Shown here one piece after another: positions 2,589 to 64,000 of a DNA stretch of 64,000 nt; positions within the stretch are counted from its first letter, which is position 1, and every line of letters starts with the position of its first letter. Both the position numbers and the translations under genes were made by a program. The notes below the pieces were generated by a model, which saw nothing but the letters and a program-made list of their open reading frames with translations, made no database searches and had not been told where the DNA came from. Origin of the DNA: the human T2T-CHM13v2.0 reference genome, Homo sapiens; the NCBI RefSeq assembly GCF_009914755.1, contig NC_060925.1. One strand, given 5' to 3'.

Positions 2589-2969
2589 TATTTCCTGAGG
2601 CTAGACCCACCTACGTTATGGGAAAAGGTATCAGGAAGAAAAAAGGACTGTCTTCTCATTAGCGTCAGTGACATTGTCAAATATGAAAGCAGAACATTAC
2701 CTAAACCGTTATCCATCCCATTGATGCTTTTACAAAATATTCCAGAAAACAAAGGGAAATGTTTTCTGGATTACAAGAATAGCAAAATACAAATAAATAC
2801 ATGAAAAAATAAATACCCCAAATTCCATGATGCAGAGAGAATCCTCGCTACCATCTGAAGCTAACCTTTTCATATCTTTTTCTACAAATACTCATATTTT
2901 ACATGGCTGAGATCAAACTATGTATATAGTGTCACAGCATTTTTCTACTTAACATTTTATCTTACGGTT

Positions 2970-3715
2970 ATGAGCTATCTATTGCTGCATAATACAATTA
3001 TCTCACAATTTAGCACCTTAAAGTAAGAAATATTTATTATCCCACAGTTTCTATGGGTCTCTGGGACAAACACTTTTCTACCTTGAATTTCTGCTGAGTA
3101 ACAATATCTCTGAGCTTCTTAACAAGCTTCCATTGTTTCATTGAGAACACTTATTTTAAAGGTTAAGTATACCTTTAAAATATTTAGATGATTTTTATTC
3201 AACTTAGTACTCTGAAGCACCACCTTTCATCTTTCTGAGGTCTCAACCAGGGATTTTACAATCACATCCTCAGTTTCATCTCCAGACAAAGTTTTTCTAG
3301 AGTGCCCTGAATTGTATCTTTACCTAAGATGATAAATTTTAGAAACATTTGTCATCTATAAATACTGGACATTTTTTAAACCATAAAGCCCTGGATCCTT
3401 TATATTTAACAGTGCTTGCTTTAGTTTATCTCCCTTTTCTCAAATTTTACTATAGGTATCAAGAAAAAAAACAGGCAGTGTTTCCAACATTCTGCTTAGA
3501 AATTTCCTCAGCTACATCACTCAGTTCACTCAGTGCACTTTCTACTTTCTACATTACTGCAGTGGCAGTGTTGGTAAATTTTCCATCACTACATAACAAG
3601 AACCCTCTTTCATCAAGTTTCCAACAAGGTTTTTCTCATTTTCCTTTATGCCTTCACCTAAAGCCTTCTCAAAGGTAGTTTTGTTTCTATAGTTCCTTCA
3701 ATACTGTACAAGATT
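2970..3715 (-). mobile_element. MaLR (MLT1-type) LTR end plus internal-sequence fragment
   Basis: 'ctatctattgctgcataa...tttattatcccacagtttct' is a reverse MLT1 LTR terminus. 'ctgcttagaaatttcctcagc' is a reverse MaLR-internal motif. Confidence 0.55.
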
Positions 3716-3894
3716 CCACTGACACGCTCCCTAAGTCCCCCCTGTAACAGTGAAACAGGGGATGAAGCCCAGCCTGCATATAGCGACATTTTAAACATTT
3801 CGCTAACACCCTTGGAAACCAGCTGAGAAAAGAGAAGGGCGGACATATCACGTGATAAACTACAACTCAATCTAGACGCACCCTAACAAAGATT

Positions 3895-22284: not shown

Positions 22285-24753
22285 TGTTTGAGATTGTCTG
22301 AATGCTTGTTTCTCCCAAAAATTCATACATTAAAACCTAATCAGCAATGTGATGCTATTTGTAGACTGAGTCTTTGGCAACTGATAAGGTTATAAGGGTG
22401 GATCCTTCATAGATAAGATAAGTACCCTTATAAAAGTGGCCTCAGAGAGCTGCCTTACTCCTTTCGCTAAGTGAGGACACAGCGAGAAGGCACATCTATG
22501 AAACAGAAACTGGGCCTTTACCAGACACCAAATTTGCCAAATCCTTGATCTGGGTCTCCCCAGCCTCTGGAACTGTGAGAAATAAATTTTCATTGTTTAA
22601 AAGCTTCCCAGCTTATGGCATTTTTTAAATAGCAGCCCAAACAGACTAATGCAAATGTTTGTACTGATAATCAGGTACTGCTATAACAAATACCTAAAAT
22701 GTAGGAGTGGCTTTAAAACTGTAATGGGTAAAGGATGGAAGTGCTTGGAGGTGTGTGCTAGAAAAAGCCTACATTCCTATAAACAGACTGTTAAGGGTGG
22801 CTCTGATGAAGGCTTAGAAGGACAGCAGGGGAGTTATAGAGAAAGCCTCAATCTTCTCAGAGAATATGTAAGTGGTCATGATCAGAATATTGGTAGAAAT
22901 ATGGATGGCAAAGGTCATTCTGATGAGTTCTTAGAAAGAAATAAAGAACATATTAATGCAAAATGGAGAAAGGCAATCTTAGTTATAAAATGGCAAAGAA
23001 CTTGGCTTAATTGTGTCTGTGTCCTAGTATTTTGTTGAAGTATTTCTGTGTCCTAGTATTTTGTTGAAGGTAGAACTTGTGAATACTGAAATACAACATT
23101 TGGCTAAAGAAAGTTTTAAGCAAAGTGTTGAAGGTGCAACTTGGCTTCTAATGTAAAAAATAGAAAAATAATTTAAAGATGGAATTTTAAATAAAAAAAT
23201 GAAGCAGAACTTAAAGATCTGAAAAACTCTCAGCCTCTCCAAATTGTAACAAATGAGAAAGCATGTTTGGGAGAGAATACTAATGGTGTAACCAAGTGAA
23301 CATTTGATAAGATTAATATGAATCAGCCAAGTTCTATTCATCAAAACTATGGAAGAATGATCCCAAAGGCATTTTGGAGATTACCAGGGATACCCCTCTT
23401 ATTACAGGCCCAGAGTGCCAGGACCTGGGGGACAGAATAATTTCAAAAAGGGGCCATAGGTGCCCACAGGACCCACATACTCGCTGGCCAGTACCACCCC
23501 AAAGCTCTGTTCCCAGCATTCTGGTGCAGCAGTCTTTGACCACCCCAGGTTCAGCTCCAGTGGGCCCAGGTGTGGTACAGGCAGTAGTTGCCACCCCTCT
23601 AGAGGACACAGACAGTAAACCTTGCCAATATCTGTGTGGTGCCACCTCTGCCAGTTCTCAGACTACACAAGCTGTGGAAATGTGGCTACCTCCATCTAGA
23701 TTTTGGAGGATGGAGCCTCCCAGAGTTCTAGGCATGCAATCCAGGCAGAGTGCTGGGTTGAGCTGGCTGAGAGTGGGGCAATTGCAGAGAGTCTCCACTA
23801 GGTCAATGTCTAGGCTGTACCTAGTGGGGTACAGCCACCCCCACGATCCCAGACCAGTAGAGCCACTGGCATGTGAATCCAGCCTAGGAAAGCAACAGAC
23901 AGGTGACTCCAACCCTTGAAAGCTGCAAAGCGATTAGGGCAGGGTTACCCAGAGCTTTGGGGACTCAATCCCTGCCAAGTAAAGCTGCAGAAATAGGATC
24001 TCTCCCCTGGAAGGTCTGGAGGGCAGAGCCTCAAGTCAAATAAGATGATTCTATATCCTTAAGGTTTTAGACTTGCAATCTGCTGCCCCTTTCTCCTTTC
24101 CTATTTCTCCCTTTTAGAATGAGAGTATCTATCCTATGACTGTCTCACCACTGTAATGTGAAAGCACATAACATGTGTGATTTCATAGGTACATAGCTAG
24201 AGAGTAATTTGCCTTAGAATGAATCATACCTTGAGTCTCATCCATATCTAATTGAGATGATAGATGAGACTCTGGACTTTTGACTTTTGAGTTGATGCTG
24301 GAAATAGTAAACACTTTTGGGGTTACTGGGATGGAATGAATGCATTCTGCTTCTGAAAAAGACAAGTTTTAGTGGGCCAGCAGCACAATTCTATGATCTA
24401 AATATATGTGTTCCTCCAAGATTCAAATGTTGAGACCTAATCACTAATTTGATGCTGTTCAGAGGTGAGGAATTTTGGGAGATAATTATGTCATGAGGGC
24501 AGAGCCCCAATGAATAGGATAAGTGACCTTACAAAAGAAGCCCCAGAGAGCTGCCTTGCCCCTTCCACCCATGTGAGGGCACAGTGAGAGGGCATCATCT
24601 ATTAACCAAAAAGTGGGGCTTCACCAGATGTCAAATCTGCCAATGCCTTGACCTAGGACTTTCCAACCTCCAGAACTGTGAGAAATAAAGTACAGTTGTT
24701 TAAAAGGAACCCAGTTTACGGTACTTTGTTATAGCAACCTAAACAGACTACAG
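22285..24753 (+). mobile_element. Two-LTR MLT1A0-like MaLR element (5' LTR ~22285-22653, internal, 3' LTR ~24389-24753)
   Basis: Both ends share 'cagagagctgcctt', 'gaactgtgagaaataaa', 'aaacagacta'. The ~1.7 kb between them has MaLR-internal motifs ('gctataacaaatacctaaaatgt', 'gacttttgagttgatgctgg'). Confidence 0.85.
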
Positions 24754-30487: not shown

Positions 30488-30836
30488 TGATATGGTTTGG
30501 CTGTGTCCCCACCCAAATCTCATCTTGAATTGTAGCTCCCATAATCCTTACATGTTATGGGAGGCACCCAGTGGGAGGTAACTGAATCATGCGGGCAGGT
30601 CTTTCCCATGCTATTCTCATGATAGTGAATATGTCTCATGAGATCTGATGGTTTTATAAAGGGCAGTTCCCCTGCACATGCTTTCTTGCCTGCTGCCATG
30701 TAAGAAATGCCTTTGCTCCTTTTTCGCCTTCTGCCATGACTGTGAGGCCTCCCCAGCCATGTGGAACCATGAGTCCATTATAAATTACCCAGTTTTGGGT
30801 ATGTCCTTATTAGCAGCATGAGAGCTGACTAATACA
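30488..30836 (+). mobile_element. THE1 (THE1B/C-like) solo LTR
   Basis: TGATATGGTTTGGCTGTGTCCCCACCCAAATC...GACTAATACA. 5-bp TSD gtact at 30483-30487 and 30837-30841. Inserted in an L2. Confidence 0.93.
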
Positions 30837-31539
30837 GTACTGTATTAATTGTGTAGCCAGCAAAGACCTCCCTGATAAGATGACATTTCAGCAGAGATGT
30901 GAATGACATGAGAAATGTACCATATAAGTATCTATGTATCATGTAGGAGTATTCCAGGCAGAAGAAGTTCAAACACTCTGAAGTGAGAACATGAGTAGCG
31001 TATTTAAGGAACAGGCAGTGGACAGATGACAGTGTCTTGAACGCTATCAGCCCCTACAGCCTTATAGTGTACTTACTTGTATCCACTATCACACTATGAG
31101 CTCCCTGAGAGAAAGGATCCTGTCTTAGTTACCTCTGAGTTGCCATTGCCTAGGACAGAATCTGACCCAGGAGACACTATATAAATATTTGAGTAATAAA
31201 TTAATGAGTGAGGATTCAACCTTTCTTCTCTCCCTTGCTTGATTCACTCCCAGGTATTATTGATGAATATGTGCTGCATCTTCAACTAGGTTTCCAGCTT
31301 TTCTGAAGGCAAACACTATGTCAAGTATATCTTTTCCTGTTCCTCCCATCTCACATGTACCCCTAGGGTTCAATGCAGTGTTGTACAAATATTATATAAG
31401 ACCAACAGATATAAAATCATTGAAGGAATATCTAGGTCTAGTGCTACCAAGATACCTGGAATAGGAAATAAATGGCAGAAATCACAGATCAAAATTCTGC
31501 ATAGAAACAAATGGTGTCAAAATATGAAAAGTAGCCATT

Positions 31540-56737: not shown

Positions 56738-58350
56738 GTACATTTGGTAGAATTTGGCTATAAATATGTCTGGTCCAGGGTTTTTTTTTGGTTGGTAGTC
56801 TTTTTATTATTGATTCAGTTTCAGAACTCAATATTGGTCTATTCAGAATTTCAATCTCTTTCTGATTCAATCTTGGGACATAGTGTGCTTCCAGGAATTT
56901 AACCATTTACTCTGCACTTTCTAATTGGTTTACATAAAGTTGTTCATAGTAGTCTCTGGGGATTTTTGTATTTCTGTGGGAATAGTTGTAATGTTGTATT
57001 TGTCATTCCTGATTGTACTTAAGTGGATATTTTTTTCTTTGTTTATCTAGCTAGCAGTCTATCGATCTTGTTTACTCTTTCAAAAAATGAACCCATGGTT
57101 TCATTGATGGTTTGTATAGATTTAATAACTAGTATCAATCCTAGTGAAACTATTCCAAAAAACTGAGAAGGAGGGACTCCTCCCTAACTCATTCTATGAA
57201 GCCACTCTCAGCCTAGTACCAAAAACTGGCACAGACATGACAAAGAAAGGAAACTTCAGGTCAATATCGCCAATGAATGCAGACACAAAAATTCTCAACA
57301 AAATACTAGAAAACTGAATCCAACAGCCCATCAAAAAGCTAATTCACCACAATCAAGCAGGCTTTATTCCCAGGATGAAGTCAATAAGTGTTATCTACCA
57401 CATGAACAGAATTAAAAGCAAAAATCATATGACCATCTCAATAGAGAAAGAAAAAGTTTTCCATAAAATCCAATATCCCTTCATGATAAAAACCCTCAAC
57501 AGGCAGACTTGTTATCAAACAGACATACCTCAACATAATAAGAGCCGTCTCTGGCAAACCTATAGCCAACACCATACTGAATAGGAATAAGCCGGAAGCA
57601 TTCACATTAAGAAATGGAACAAGACAAGGATGCCCACTCTCACCACTCTTATTTTACATAGTACTAGAAGTCCTAGCCAAAGCAGTCAGGCAAGAGAAAG
57701 CAATAAGAGGCATCCAAACAGGAACAGAAGAAATTAAACTATGTTTTGTCACTTGCAATATGACTGTATACTTAGAAAACCCTAGAGACTCCAGCAAAGG
57801 GCTCTTAAACCTGACAAACTATTTTATCAAGGTTTCACAATATCAACATACAAAAATCAGTAGCATCTCTATAAACCAATAAGCATCCAGAATGGGAATC
57901 AAATCCAGAACACAATTCCATTTATTATACACTAGCCACAAAAAAATGAAATACACAGGACTACAGCTTAAACAACTGGTTAACTGAGGCAACTACAAAA
58001 CACTGCTGAAAGAAATCAGAGATGACACAAATAAATGGAAAGACATACCATGCTCATTGATTGGAACAATCAGTATCATTAACATGGCCATACTGTCCAA
58101 AACAACTTACAAATTCAATGTTATTTCAACCAAATTACCAACATCATTTTTCACAGAATTAGAAAAAAATCATAAAATTCATATGGAACCAAAAAAGAGT
58201 CCAAATACCCAAAGTAATCCTAAGAAAAAAGAACAAGGCTGGAGAAATCATACTATCTAACTTCAAACTATACTCTAAGGCTACAGTAACCGAAACAGTA
58301 TGGTGCTGGTACTAAAACGGACACAGAGATCAATGGAACAGAATAGAAAA
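56738..58350 (+). mobile_element. Older L1 (L1PB/L1MA-type) with 5' inversion (56738-~57120 minus, ~57129-58350 plus); host of the THE1/ZNF cassette
   Basis: Minus peptide PRLNQKEIEILNRPILSSETESIIK. Plus 'gagggactcctccctaactcattctatgaagcc'...'gatcaatggaacagaatag'. Confidence 0.9.
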
Positions 58351-58354
58351 TAGA

Positions 58355-58497
58355 GGCAGAAGAAATTTCTAAGCGGCAAAGCATACAAGAGGTGACTTGG
58401 GTGCTGTTAAAGGCATTCAGTTTTATAAGGGAAGCAGAGCATAAAAGTTCAGAAAATTTGCAGTCTGACAATGTGATAAAAAAAAAAAAAAATCCCA
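58355..58497 (+). mobile_element. THE1-internal (MaLR) fragment
   Basis: 'ggcagaagaaatttctaagcggcaaagcatacaagaggtgacttgggtgctgttaaaggcattcagtttt...gcagagcataaaagttcagaaaatttgcag...aaaatccca' matches the 5' part of THE1-int as recalled. No LTR upstream. Confidence 0.85.
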
Positions 58498-58602
58498 CCG
58501 GCACCACGGCCTTTGTCTCACAGTCAGGCGGAGCAGGGGCAGCCATTCCTGCCAGAAGCCAGGGCATGACCCCTGGGCTGCCTGTCTCCACAGACCCAGT
58601 GA

Positions 58603-63080
<4,478 letters not shown>

Positions 63081-63170
63081 ACCCACTCCACATGTGCTGG
63101 GGACATAGGAAGACCTTAAGACATAGCTCATCCCTTTCTAGATTTGACCCAATCATACACATGAGAAACA

Positions 63171-63207
63171 TATGTCTTTATCAACAGGGTGGAAACAGAC
63201 TAATACA
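63171..63207 (+). mobile_element. 3'-terminal 37 bp of a THE1 LTR
   Basis: tatgtctttatcaacagggtggaaacagactaataca aligns ungapped, 28/37, with the end of the in-window THE1 LTR (30800-30836). It ends in the terminal CA. Confidence 0.8.
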
Positions 63208-63317
63208 AAAGTGAAGAGACAATCCACTGAAGGAAAGAAGTATCTCATGTACTCCATAAATATATACACCTATTAAATATTTTAATTTCAATCTTTGTGG
63301 TTACATGATAGGTGTAT

Positions 63318-64000
63318 GACCAAGCTGAGAAACAACTCAAGGAGGCAACCCCATTTACAACAACTACAAAAAAATAAAATATCTAGGAATACATGTAACC
63401 AAGGAGATGAAAGATTTCTACTAGAAAAACTGCAAAACACGGATGAAAAAAATATAGATGACATAAACACATGAAAAAACATCCCATACTCATGGAGCAG
63501 AAGAATTAATACTGTTAAAGTGATCACACTGCCCAAAGCAAGCTACAGATTCAATGCAATCCCTCTCAAAATACTGACATTATTTTTAACAGAACTAGAT
63601 AAAGCAATCCTAAAATTCATATTGTACCCAAAGGAGCCCAAATAGCCAAAGCAGTTCTAAGCAAAAACAACAAAGCTGGAGATATCAAATTATCTGGCAT
63701 CAAATTACACATACTACAAGGCTTTATTAACCAAAACAGCATGGTACTGGTTTAAAAATAGACAATTAACATCAATTAAAGAATAGAGAACCCAGAAATA
63801 AAGCCACCTATCTCCAGCCAACTACACATACATTGGGAAGAGGACATTGTTTTCAATAAGTGGTACTGGTAATATTGGATTGCCACCTGCAGAAGAATGA
63901 AACTAGACTCCTATCTCTTGGCATACACAAAAATCAACTCAAGATGGATTAAAGACTTAAATGTAAGACCTAAAACTATAAAAATACTATAAGAAAAACT
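63318..64000 (+). mobile_element. L1PB-type ORF2 fragment, runs off the window
   Basis: 'ccatttacaacaactacaaaaaaataaaatatctaggaatac', 'tacagattcaatgcaatccc', 'aaatcaactcaagatggattaaagacttaaa'. Confidence 0.9.

What the first reader, a model, noticed from the sequence alone, without database searches (positions are those of the whole stretch)
63171..63230. Only a U5-sized LTR tip survives and the 5' LTR is absent: possible misdirected first strand transfer and one-ended integration
Seen: the LTR remnant is only the terminal 37 bp and joins cleanly at CA to L1 sequence ('aaagtgaagagacaatcc'). The other end has no LTR. About 370 bp of host L1 is missing between 58350 and 63208, estimated from the equivalent motifs at about 50010 and 49630. 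Inference: minus-strand strong-stop DNA jumped onto the ZNF135 RNA instead of the THE1 3' R, copied to the 5' end of that RNA, then switched back to THE1-int. Such a cDNA lacks the PPT and U3 and cannot rebuild a 5' LTR. That would explain one integrase-like end and one repair-like end with target deletion.
Basis: inference. Interest (0 to 1): 0.75.

Follow-up and report, generated by a model that had tools for sequence, protein, structure and literature searches.

The report
ZNF135 copy inside broken THE1 element
A dead copy of a zinc-finger gene transcript sits between two small pieces of an extinct THE1 retrovirus-like element, most likely because that element's copying enzyme jumped onto the gene's RNA, although an ordinary L1-made copy followed by deletions is not excluded.

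Summary
Three introns are removed, the last is kept, and there is no poly(A). The chimera lies in an old L1 that lacks about 370 bp at that point. There is no 5' LTR, U3, R, PBS or target-site duplication.

Best reading (0.5): THE1 reverse transcription switched templates. It left U5 after about 37 nt at a 6-nt microhomology, entered the ZNF135 3' UTR, ran to exon 1, and jumped back to THE1 RNA. One end was joined by integrase and the other by host repair.

Completed strong-stop DNA would carry R and exceed 150 nt.

Main rival (0.33): an L1-made retrocopy entered a resident THE1 provirus, and deletions followed. The ZNF135 5' end lies 5 nt past the only long A-run in THE1, an L1-like target. 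The copy also dates at or just after the youngest THE1 relatives sampled.

Primate orthologues would decide. This is a known kind (LTR-mediated retroposition) in an unreported family and form.

The parts
56738..57113 (-). Inverted 5' segment of the host L1
   Evidence: aligns in reverse to positions 2549-2168 of the in-window L1 reference, next to the sense part that begins at 57126.
57126..58350 (+). Host L1 ORF2 region, left flank of the insert; ends at reference position 3393
   Evidence: 57126-57322 aligns to reference 2556-2752, and 57760-58347 to reference 2796-3393.
58342..58354 (+). Left junction: AATAGA-A-AATAGA, a short duplicated or filler stretch between L1 and THE1 (4 bases, 58351-58354, belong to neither)
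   Evidence: Read against the L1 sequence at 63783-63800 and the THE1 copies. Calling it a repair-type templated insertion is inference.
58355..58497 (+). THE1 internal fragment, positions 713 to about 855 of a 2281-bp THE1 copy (about 359-500 nt after the 5' LTR). Includes THE1's own A-run at 58478-58492, then TCCCA.
   Evidence: 2399 candidates, 40 scored; apart from the window itself, 39 matches at 93-95%. Searches show the context in the copies; 94.9% to L002 element positions 713-850.
58498..58531 (+). Last 34 nt of parent exon 1 (G000:C19:61156099-61156132)
   Evidence: a 22-nt BLAST match, extended by eye to 34 nt. The parent continues with the donor AGG|GTGAGC and lies in a CpG island (GC 0.76, CpG o/e 1.0).
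58532..59065 (+). Parent exon 2 (58532-58842), KRAB-A exon (58843-58969) and KRAB-B exon (58970-59065), spliced together
   Evidence: the pieces match C19:61156794-61157208, 61158388-61158514 and 61160238 onward. All parental boundaries are GT-AG. One search gives the KRAB translation.
59066..61370 (+). Retained last intron, with an old antisense Alu (59826-60125). It lacks 945 bp of the parental intron at 59825|59826.
61371..63169 (+). Last exon: linker, zinc-finger array (stops and a frameshift) and the first 91 nt of the 3' UTR. Overlaps the annotated ZNF859P.
   Evidence: The parent match ends at C19:61165349-61165355.
63170..63175 (+). Junction microhomology GTAYGT: parent GTACGT, THE1 GTATGT, window ATATGT
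   Evidence: Chance of 6 or more perfect bases is 0.0018, and of 3 or more is 0.059, in 200,000 random breakpoint pairs.
63171..63207 (+). Terminal 37 bp of a THE1 LTR, all within inferred U5, ending in CA
63208..63300 (+). Host L1 resumes: 33 bp of ORF2 (about reference 3766-3795) fused by an internal L1 deletion to the last ~40-60 bp of an old-L1 3' end. A second L1 follows at 63321-64000.

Best explanation
This is a fossil of an aberrant THE1 (ERVL-MaLR) reverse transcription, a retrocopy made by an LTR element rather than by L1. All steps below are inferred from the junctions.

1. Minus-strand DNA synthesis started at the THE1 primer-binding site and copied the last ~37 nt of U5.
2. At a GTAYGT microhomology the enzyme switched to a co-packaged ZNF135 transcript whose last intron was still unspliced. 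It entered the 3' UTR 858 nt before the poly(A) site.
3. It copied that RNA to within exon 1, possibly skipping 945 nt of the intron on the way.
4. It jumped, without homology, to THE1 RNA about 500 nt after the 5' LTR and copied at least 143 nt more.
5. The cDNA had no PPT, U3 or R, so no LTR could form. Its intact U5 end (…CA) was joined to an L1 by integrase. The other, non-viral end was joined by host end-joining, with loss of about 370 bp of L1 and a few filler bases.

The product is an inert pseudogene in an AGBL4 intron.
For: RNA origin: three introns are removed exactly at parental GT-AG sites and the fourth is kept.

Not the ordinary L1 type:
- There is no poly(A), and the 3' end stops inside the UTR. 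A chrX copy of the same gene runs 858 nt further and ends in A9.
- The A-run lies upstream of the insert, which is the wrong side for a poly(A) tail.

The THE1 pieces:
- Both are on the same strand and in element order.
- 1394 bp of the element (positions 851-2244) are replaced by 4672 bp of ZNF135.
- The parental 16-kb locus has no THE1.
- No second copy of either junction exists in the assembly.

The 3' junction has a 6-nt microhomology, P = 0.0018 if perfect. The median in published LTR-mediated retrocopies is 6 bp (PMC5131818, passage).

The LTR end is complete to CA. It lacks the GTAAAT spacer and the TGGTACCAG... PBS that follow it in THE1 copies, as after integrase processing.

A switch inside U5 predicts both the absent 5' LTR and the absent U3/R, so two oddities have one cause.

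One-ended integration with host-made deletions is experimentally known (PMC5041404, passages).

The window's THE1 fragment has 3 private substitutions in 122 sites. The median in relatives is 6.2%. By my arithmetic, Poisson P(≤3) is about 0.055 at that rate.

LTR-mediated retrocopies are documented in human, 3 cases, and for a mouse MaLR, ORR1A3 (PMC5131818, section 6 and Supplemental Table 8).
Against: The 5' junction:
- ZNF135 begins 5 nt after the end of the only strongly A-rich window (≥10 A in 12) of the THE1 element. That window was found in 5 of 7 copies examined, and none was found in the other 2.
- The run is preceded by T. That is the geometry of an L1 endonuclease site plus a 5-20-bp target duplication.
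- For a random acceptor the chance is about 20/1570, or 1.3% (my arithmetic).
- The junction has no microhomology. In the published Drosophila set, 25 of 29 junctions did.

Dating, with K2P as the distance measure:
- Retrocopy versus parent intron is 0.074 ± 0.006 (0.069 without CpG sites).
- Of 27 relatives, 20 gave an LTR pair. I dropped L048 as a mis-pair, since one search shows it has no 5' LTR. For the remaining 19, 5'/3' LTR distances are 0.097-0.212, median 0.136; without CpG the minimum is 0.079 and the median 0.128 (medians taken by hand).
- The closest THE1A-type LTRs in the genome are only 89-91% alike.
- The event would therefore have to be among the very last THE1 events.

Other points:
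- 5' truncation of THE1 proviruses is not rare: 4 of 26 independent relatives have no 5' LTR within 6.5 kb. The missing 5' LTR is thus weaker evidence than it looks.
- The published model expects both LTRs in the product.
- The jump back to THE1 RNA is not needed for this kind of integration, so it is an extra unforced step.
Confidence: 0.5

Rival explanations
1. Ordinary history in four steps.
1. A normal THE1 provirus integrated into the L1. This accounts for the clean CA junction, with AAAGT as its 5-bp target duplication.
2. L1 machinery later inserted a full-length, polyadenylated, intron-retaining ZNF135 retrocopy at THE1's internal A-run.
3. A ~2.3-kb deletion between GTACGT in the UTR and GTATGT in the LTR removed the UTR tail, the poly(A), the second target copy, the rest of THE1-int and most of the 3' LTR.
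4. A ~1.1-kb deletion removed about 370 bp of L1, the 5' LTR and the first ~358 nt of THE1-int.
For: - T|A15 followed by TCCCA lies immediately upstream of the ZNF135 5' end. This A-run is the only such run in THE1. It fits an L1 endonuclease site and a 5-20-bp target duplication.
- The copy dates younger than all 19 dated THE1 relatives, as expected if it entered an older element.
- 4 of 26 relatives are 5'-truncated.
- The retrocopy itself shows a 945-bp loss, so kilobase deletions do happen here.
- The same gene made a classical L1-type copy on chrX.
- Most human retrocopies flanked by LTR elements are insertions into existing elements: 518 were screened and 3 kept in PMC5131818 (passages).
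- THE1 target duplications are 5 bp in 3 of 3 copies checked.
Against: - It needs three independent kilobase-scale deletions within about 10 kb, counting the intron loss.
- One deletion must remove every L1 hallmark and stop 37 bp before the LTR end. Another must remove exactly the LTR that the template-switch model says could never have existed.
- 0 of 26 relatives have lost the 3' part.
- A 6-nt junction microhomology is long for a plain deletion.
- A full-length L1-made copy of a ~5.5-kb RNA is uncommon (general knowledge of 5' truncation).
- No poly(A), second target copy or other direct L1 hallmark survives to be checked.
Confidence: 0.33
2. cDNA capture at a DNA break (endonuclease-independent retroposition). 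A resident THE1 provirus suffered a break. A broken end inside the LTR annealed by GTAYGT to ZNF135 RNA and primed reverse transcription, for example by L1 ORF2p. 1.4 kb of THE1 was lost as a target deletion. The 5' LTR and 370 bp of L1 were lost separately.
For: - There is no poly(A), the copy is 3'-truncated, the 3' junction has microhomology, a target deletion is present and there is no target duplication. These are the features described for endonuclease-independent insertions; that description is recalled, not read here.
- The clean LTR/L1 junction follows from an ordinary earlier integration.
Against: - It still needs the separate 5' deletion.
- The position next to the A-run becomes a coincidence of about 1.3%.
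- Landing inside a THE1 provirus in the sense orientation is also a coincidence.
- Such events are rare for mRNAs (recalled).
Confidence: 0.07
3. Template-switch cDNA plus homologous repair. A chimeric THE1-ZNF135-U5 cDNA was made as in the best explanation. It then replaced the interior of a THE1 provirus already resident in the L1 by recombination or gene conversion, as Ty1 cDNAs do in yeast. The 5' part was deleted later.
For: It explains the clean LTR end and the U5 junction together. cDNA-mediated conversion is cited for yeast in PMC5131818 (reference to Derr et al. 1991; passages only).
Against: - Only 37 bp of homology would be available on the right side.
- It needs both the rare chimeric cDNA and a resident THE1 provirus at the site, plus a later deletion.
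- Nothing in the sequence calls for it.
Confidence: 0.05
4. One reading: completed minus-strand strong-stop DNA transferred to the ZNF135 RNA instead of to the THE1 3' R.
For: The retained tip is about the inferred size of U5. ATTAAA lies 61-70 nt before the LTR end in the copies, so the cleavage site should lie about 31-60 nt before the end.
Against: - Strong-stop DNA is U5 plus R. The THE1 start site is upstream of LTR position 204 (PMC10735291, passage), so R-U5 exceeds 150 nt. No R is present.
- The acceptor is an internal UTR site 858 nt from the poly(A) site, not an RNA 3' end.
Confidence: 0.02

Closest known systems
LTR-mediated retrocopies made by template switching (Tan et al. 2016, PMC5131818). 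Human cases: FAM8A1 x2 with HERVK14, and ENSG00000176788 with MER4. Mouse cases include the MaLR ORR1A3.
   Same: A cellular RNA copy replaces the interior of an LTR element. The element is discontinuous. There is no poly(A), the copy is 3'-truncated, and microsimilarity is present at a switch point.
   Different: - There are no LTRs at all except a 37-bp U5 tip, whereas the published model expects both.
- The switch is placed before first-strand transfer.
- One junction is blunt and an intron is retained.
- The family (THE1) and gene are not in their Supplemental Table 8. Their PDF data sets could not be read.
Aberrant one-ended retroviral integration (ASLV vectors with one defective end; HIV with suboptimal integrase inhibitor or mutant integrase; PMC5041404 and its references 11 and 12)
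   Same: One viral end and its host junction are normal. The other end is truncated and joined by host enzymes, with deletion of host DNA.
   Different: Those are experimental proviruses that have LTRs. Here the 'bad end' would result from a cDNA that never had a U3 end. The timing of the L1 deletion cannot be shown.
L1-mediated (semi-)processed pseudogene, e.g. the chrX copy of the same gene (G000:C23:100356100-100357593 plus A9)
   Same: It is an RNA-derived copy of the same parent. An A-rich, L1-like target lies at the upstream side of the chr1 copy.
   Different: The chr1 copy has no poly(A) and no detectable target duplication. It stops 858 nt short of the poly(A) site and is bracketed by THE1 pieces.
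Retroviral transduction of cellular genes, and Ty1-mediated pseudogenes in yeast (recalled; cited within PMC5131818)
   Same: Non-homologous or microhomology-guided template switches occur between element RNA and a co-packaged cellular RNA.
   Different: Those products keep the cis elements needed for further replication. This one keeps none and is a dead end.

Membership tests
LTR-element-mediated retrocopy (criteria of Tan et al. 2016) | RNA-derived copy of a cellular gene (intron loss) | tested here: met
   3 of 4 parental introns are removed at GT-AG boundaries; the last is retained.
LTR-element-mediated retrocopy (criteria of Tan et al. 2016) | LTR-element sequence on both sides, same element, discontinuous by more than 20 bp | tested here: met
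   THE1 positions 713-850 lie on the left and 2245-2281 on the right, on the same strand; 1394 bp are missing.
LTR-element-mediated retrocopy (criteria of Tan et al. 2016) | No L1 hallmarks (poly(A), target duplication) | tested here: inconclusive
   There is no poly(A) and no duplication. However, a T|A15 run lies 5 nt upstream of the insert's 5' end, and a second target copy could have been deleted.
LTR-element-mediated retrocopy (criteria of Tan et al. 2016) | Microsimilarity at the switch points | tested here: inconclusive
   The 3' junction has 6 nt, one position ambiguous because of a parental CpG. The 5' junction has 0 nt.
LTR-element-mediated retrocopy (criteria of Tan et al. 2016) | Both LTRs present in the product | tested here: not met
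   There is no 5' LTR, and only 37 bp of the 3' LTR.
LTR-element-mediated retrocopy (criteria of Tan et al. 2016) | Formed while the LTR family was active | tested here: inconclusive
   The copy gives 0.074 ± 0.006. The youngest related proviruses give 0.097 ± 0.015, or 0.079 without CpG. The window's THE1 fragment has 3 private changes in 122 sites.
L1-mediated processed pseudogene | Poly(A) tail at the 3' end of a 3'-complete copy | tested here: not met
   The copy ends 858 nt before the poly(A) site used by the chrX copy, and no A-run follows it.
L1-mediated processed pseudogene | Flanking target-site duplication of 7-20 bp | tested here: not met
   The flanks are THE1-int on one side and a THE1 LTR tip on the other, with no repeat of A15TCCCA downstream. 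If it once existed it would lie in the missing stretch.
L1-mediated processed pseudogene | Insertion at a TT|AAAA-like site | tested here: met
   GAT|A15 TCCCA lies directly upstream of the insert, and it is the only long A-run of THE1. Tan et al. call this feature unreliable on its own.
THE1 (ERVL-MaLR) provirus | Two LTRs, a PBS after the 5' LTR, and a 5-bp target duplication | tested here: not met
   None of these is present. Relatives show the LTR pair, GTAAAT+TGGTACCAG... after the 5' LTR, and 5-bp duplications in 3 of 3 copies. That the PBS matches tRNA-Leu is recalled, not tested.
THE1 (ERVL-MaLR) provirus | Sequence homology to the THE1 interior and LTR terminus | tested here: met
   93-95% to 39 scored copies over about 135 bp, and 86-97% over the 37-bp tip.
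One-ended integrase insertion | One intact viral end at CA joined to host DNA without microhomology; the other end truncated, with host rearrangement | tested here: met
   At 63207|63208 the LTR's ACA is followed by L1's AAAGTG (the L1 copy L032 has C before AAAGTG). The left end has filler and about 370 bp of L1 missing.
One-ended integrase insertion | The host deletion arose at the time of insertion | not testable with these tools
   This needs orthologous or empty-site sequences from other primates.

The most novel reading that the evidence does not exclude
The locus preserves a single failed replication cycle of an extinct MaLR element. Reverse transcriptase left U5 before strong-stop DNA was finished, copied a partly spliced host transcript end to end, and jumped back to element RNA. 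The LTR-less cDNA then entered the genome through one integrase-made end and one repair-made end, with a target deletion.

That would be the first THE1-mediated gene copy reported in human. It would also be a natural example of one-ended integration, so far known from vector experiments.
Probability: 0.45. Interest if true: 0.55.

Novelty: new variant of a known kind. Interest (0 to 1): 0.4.

Why it matters
If the template-switch reading is right, it shows three things.
- The ERVL/MaLR machinery, not only L1, copied host genes in anthropoid ancestors.
- Such copies can enter the genome without any LTR. Screens that require LTR flanks would then miss this class.
- One-ended integration with host deletion, so far an observation from vector experiments, also happened in germlines.

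If the rival is right, the locus is an ordinary L1-made pseudogene trimmed by deletions. It would then be a warning that such trimming can imitate LTR-mediated retroposition.

Either way the element is an inert pseudogene (ZNF859P) in an AGBL4 intron, with no sign of function.

Tried and rejected
- Mapping the THE1 poly(A) site from polyadenylated LTR copies failed. One pattern gave 4 hits against 5 in the reversed control. The other gave 1 uninformative hit. The R/U5 boundary is therefore inferred only from the ATTAAA position.
- Direct alignment of the 33-nt right flank to the young in-window L1 was not significant (285 of 300 shuffles scored as high). It was placed through the old L1 copy L032 instead.
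- 'The A-run is a poly(A) tail': rejected. THE1 copies carry the run at that place, and the window continues with THE1's next bases TCCCA.
- 'The THE1 pieces came along from chr19': rejected. There is no THE1 in the 16-kb parental locus.
- 'DNA-level duplication of the gene': rejected because of the three exact intron removals.
- 'The chimera is a member of an amplified family': rejected. No second copy of either junction was found.
- Canonical L1 insertion of the present structure as a whole: rejected on geometry, because the A-run is on the 5' side and there is no 3' poly(A).
- 'The internal A-run is THE1's PPT': rejected. The real pre-LTR tract is G-rich.
- The 945-bp gap in the intron as a splice: rejected, because the boundaries are not GT-AG.
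- Literature: ZNF859P gave 0 papers. ZNF135, THE1 and MaLR gave no hits in the readable supplement of PMC5131818. Its PDF data sets, Supplemental Figures and Methods could not be read and might list the locus.
No tool here names genes outside the window.

Full report
**What is there**

The window is human chr1 (T2T), and the assembly could be searched. On the + strand, from left to right:

- **Host L1.** An old L1 has an inverted 5' piece at 56738-57113 and ORF2 sequence at 57126-58350. The ORF2 part ends at position 3393 of an in-window L1 reference.
- **Left junction.** Four filler bases lie inside a short AATAGA-A-AATAGA duplication at 58342-58354.
- **THE1 internal fragment, 58355-58497.** The genome search found 2399 candidates and scored 40. 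Apart from the window itself, the 39 matches are 93-95% identical. In full copies this stretch lies about 359-500 nt after the 5' LTR, at positions 713-850 of the 2281-bp copy L002, 94.9%. The 'poly(A)' at 58478-58492 is THE1's own A-run (GATAGAAAAGAAAAACCCATTTTC in relatives). The window continues with THE1's next bases, TCCCA.
- **Copy of the chr19 locus, 58498-63169** (parent C19:61156099-61165349).
  - It has the last 34 nt of exon 1, then exon 2, then the KRAB-A and KRAB-B exons. All are joined exactly where the parent has GT-AG introns.
  - The last intron is retained, followed by the zinc-finger exon and 91 nt of 3' UTR.
  - The reading frame carries stops and a frameshift.
  - Identity to the parent is 91.5-93.9%.
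- **THE1 LTR tip, 63171-63207.** These are the last 37 bp of a THE1 LTR, ending ...CTAATACA.
- **Host L1 resumes, from 63208.** There are 33 bp of L1 ORF2 near reference position 3766, then the extreme 3' end of an old L1. A second L1 starts at 63321.

About 370 bp of the host L1 are missing at the insert.

**The junctions**

*3' junction.*
- The parent reads GAGAAAC-GTACGT-TCATAC.
- THE1 LTRs read ...GG-GTATGT-CTTTATC.
- The window reads GAGAAAC-ATATGT-CTTTATC.
- That is a 6-nt overlap, with one position ambiguous because of a parental CpG. Random breakpoint pairs reach 6 or more perfect bases in 0.18% of 200,000 trials, and 3 or more in 5.9%.
- The parental UTR continues past this point. A second, 5'-truncated copy of the gene on chrX follows the parent for another 858 nt and ends in A9. 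The chr1 copy is therefore 3'-truncated and never shows a poly(A).

*5' junction.* It is blunt: THE1 ...AAATCCCA | CCGGCACC... exon 1.

*Right end.* The LTR is complete to CA. In THE1 copies the 5' LTR is followed by GTAAAT and TGGTACCAGTAGAGTGGGG, the PBS; that this matches tRNA-Leu is my recollection. None of that is present in the window.

THE1 makes 5-bp target duplications in 3 of 3 copies checked. There is none here.

**What it is not**

- It is not a DNA duplication, because introns are gone.
- It was not carried over from chr19. No THE1 lies in 16 kb around the parent.
- It is not a member of an amplified chimera family. No other copy of either junction was found.
- It is not, in its present form, an L1-type pseudogene. 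There is no poly(A) and no duplication, and the A-run is on the wrong side.

**Best explanation (0.5): template switching by the THE1/ERVL reverse transcriptase**

U5 exists only at the 5' end of the element's RNA. A reverse-transcriptase-made junction between a cellular 3' UTR and the last 37 nt of U5 therefore means that minus-strand synthesis, freshly primed at the PBS, left the THE1 RNA for the ZNF135 RNA at the microhomology. It then ran to exon 1 and jumped to THE1 RNA about 500 nt after the 5' LTR.

Such a cDNA has no PPT, U3 or R. The lack of a 5' LTR and the near-absence of the 3' LTR then follow from one cause.

Its intact CA end fits integrase. The other end fits host repair: it is truncated, has filler, and is missing 370 bp of target. 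That division of labour is documented for ASLV and HIV (PMC5041404, passages).

The structure meets the published working criteria for LTR-mediated retrocopies: a discontinuous LTR element on both sides, no poly(A), and microsimilarity (PMC5131818; passages, section 6 and Supplemental Table 8). That study lists three human cases, none with THE1 or this gene, and a mouse MaLR case.

Completed strong-stop DNA contains R. The THE1 start site lies upstream of LTR position 204 (PMC10735291, passage only; its figure was not seen). R-U5 is therefore longer than 150 nt, yet only 37 nt are present.

ATTAAA lies 61-70 nt before the LTR end in the copies. The tip thus begins 23-33 nt after the signal. 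It is U5-sized or slightly shorter, with no R.

The acceptor was an internal UTR site, not an RNA end. If reverse transcriptase did this, it was a premature copy-choice switch, not a misdirected strand transfer.

**The main rival (0.33): L1-made copy into a resident provirus, then deletions**

Evidence for it:
1. The ZNF135 5' end lies 5 nt past the only strongly A-rich window in THE1, which was present in 5 of 7 copies (none in the other 2), and the run is preceded by T. That is how the upstream side of an L1 endonuclease insertion looks. For a random acceptor I estimate about 1.3%.
2. **Dating** (K2P distance).
   - The copy differs from the parental intron by 0.074 ± 0.006, or 0.069 without CpG.
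   - Its own branch carries 25 private changes in 601 sites. The chrX copy carries 18 and the parent 4.
   - Of 27 THE1 relatives, 20 gave a 5'/3' LTR pair. I dropped L048 as a mis-pair. The other 19 give 0.097-0.212, median 0.136; without CpG the minimum is 0.079 (medians by hand).
   - The closest THE1A-type LTRs anywhere are 89-91% alike.
   - The copy thus dates at or just after the youngest relatives.
3. 4 of 26 independent relatives lack a 5' LTR within 6.5 kb.
4. The copy has itself lost 945 bp of the intron, including the poly-T end of an Alu that the parent keeps.

Evidence against it:
- It needs three separate kilobase deletions in about 10 kb.
- One must erase all L1 hallmarks and stop 37 bp before the LTR end.
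- None of the 26 relatives has lost its 3' part.
- The 6-nt microhomology is long for a plain deletion.
- The window's THE1 fragment has only 3 private changes in 122 sites, against a 6.2% median in relatives. Poisson P is about 0.055 at that rate, by my arithmetic.

**Weighing**

My rough weighing of these points favours template switching by a small factor that depends on uncertain base rates, hence 0.5 against 0.33.

Break-capture (0.07), cDNA conversion of a resident provirus (0.05) and the literal strong-stop model (0.02) take most of the rest.

**Novelty and verdict**

LTR-mediated retroposition is a known kind. A THE1 case in human, with the switch inside U5, no LTRs and one-ended insertion, would be a new variant.

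I found no paper on ZNF859P. The locus is not in the readable supplement of PMC5131818; its PDF data sets were not readable.

The locus itself is inert. Primate orthologues, which these tools do not hold, would settle the matter. Interest: 0.4.

Noticed in passing
window 59825|59826 (parent G000:C19 about 61161062-61162006): The retained intron of the copy lacks 945 bp that the parent has. The missing stretch includes an Alu and the poly-T end of the antisense Alu that both share. The boundaries are not GT-AG, and only 2 nt (AG) overlap. It is either a reverse-transcriptase skip or a later deletion.
   Followed up: partly
window 63238-63300 and locus L032 (G000:C7:54158948-54159023): The host L1 jumps from ORF2 (about reference 3795) straight to its last ~50 bp. 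An unrelated old L1 copy on chr7 has almost the same internal deletion, at a shared AARTATYT similarity. This is either a recurrent deletion or a deleted L1 lineage that spread.
   Followed up: no
loci L044/L045, L048, L054, L057 (extended as L058-L061): 4 of 26 independent THE1 proviruses related to the window's fragment start inside the element (probe positions 356, 436, 670, 271), with no 5' LTR within 6.5 kb upstream. 0 of 26 lack the 3' LTR. The asymmetry could mean that 5'-truncated insertion was intrinsic to THE1.
   Followed up: partly
G000:C23:100356100-100357602 (locus L025): There is a second retrocopy of the same gene on chrX. It is 5'-truncated, 95.7% identical to the parent over 1494 bp, ends in A9 and has a possible AAAAAGT target duplication. 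It is a textbook L1-type copy and younger than the chr1 copy.
   Followed up: partly
window 59820-60125: The Alu inside the retained intron differs from the parental Alu by K2P 0.15. The flanking intron differs by 0.074. Possible causes are misalignment at the deletion edge or Alu-Alu conversion in the parent.
   Followed up: no
window 63079-63169: The 91 nt of 3' UTR just before the junction differ from the parent at only 1 site, where about 6.7 would be expected (Poisson P about 0.01, my arithmetic). The chrX copy has several changes in the same stretch.
   Followed up: no
window 58342-58354: The L1/THE1 junction reads AATAGA-A-AATAGA-GG. The second unit looks like a short templated copy of the adjacent L1 bases, as seen in alternative end joining.
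   Followed up: no
window 30488-30839 and 24262-24322: A solitary MaLR-type LTR (77% to a THE1 LTR over about 350 bp) and a 61-bp THE1-int-like scrap lie elsewhere in the window. Neither is related to the finding.
   Followed up: no
window 56738-57126: The host L1 has a 5' inversion: an inverted piece matching reference 2549-2168 lies next to the sense part starting at reference 2556. This is the usual twin-priming pattern.
   Followed up: no
loci L044 and L045 (G000:C1 about 25.10 and 25.17 Mb): Two THE1 copies 70 kb apart have identical structure and scores. They are probably one element within a segmental duplication, so I counted them once.
   Followed up: no
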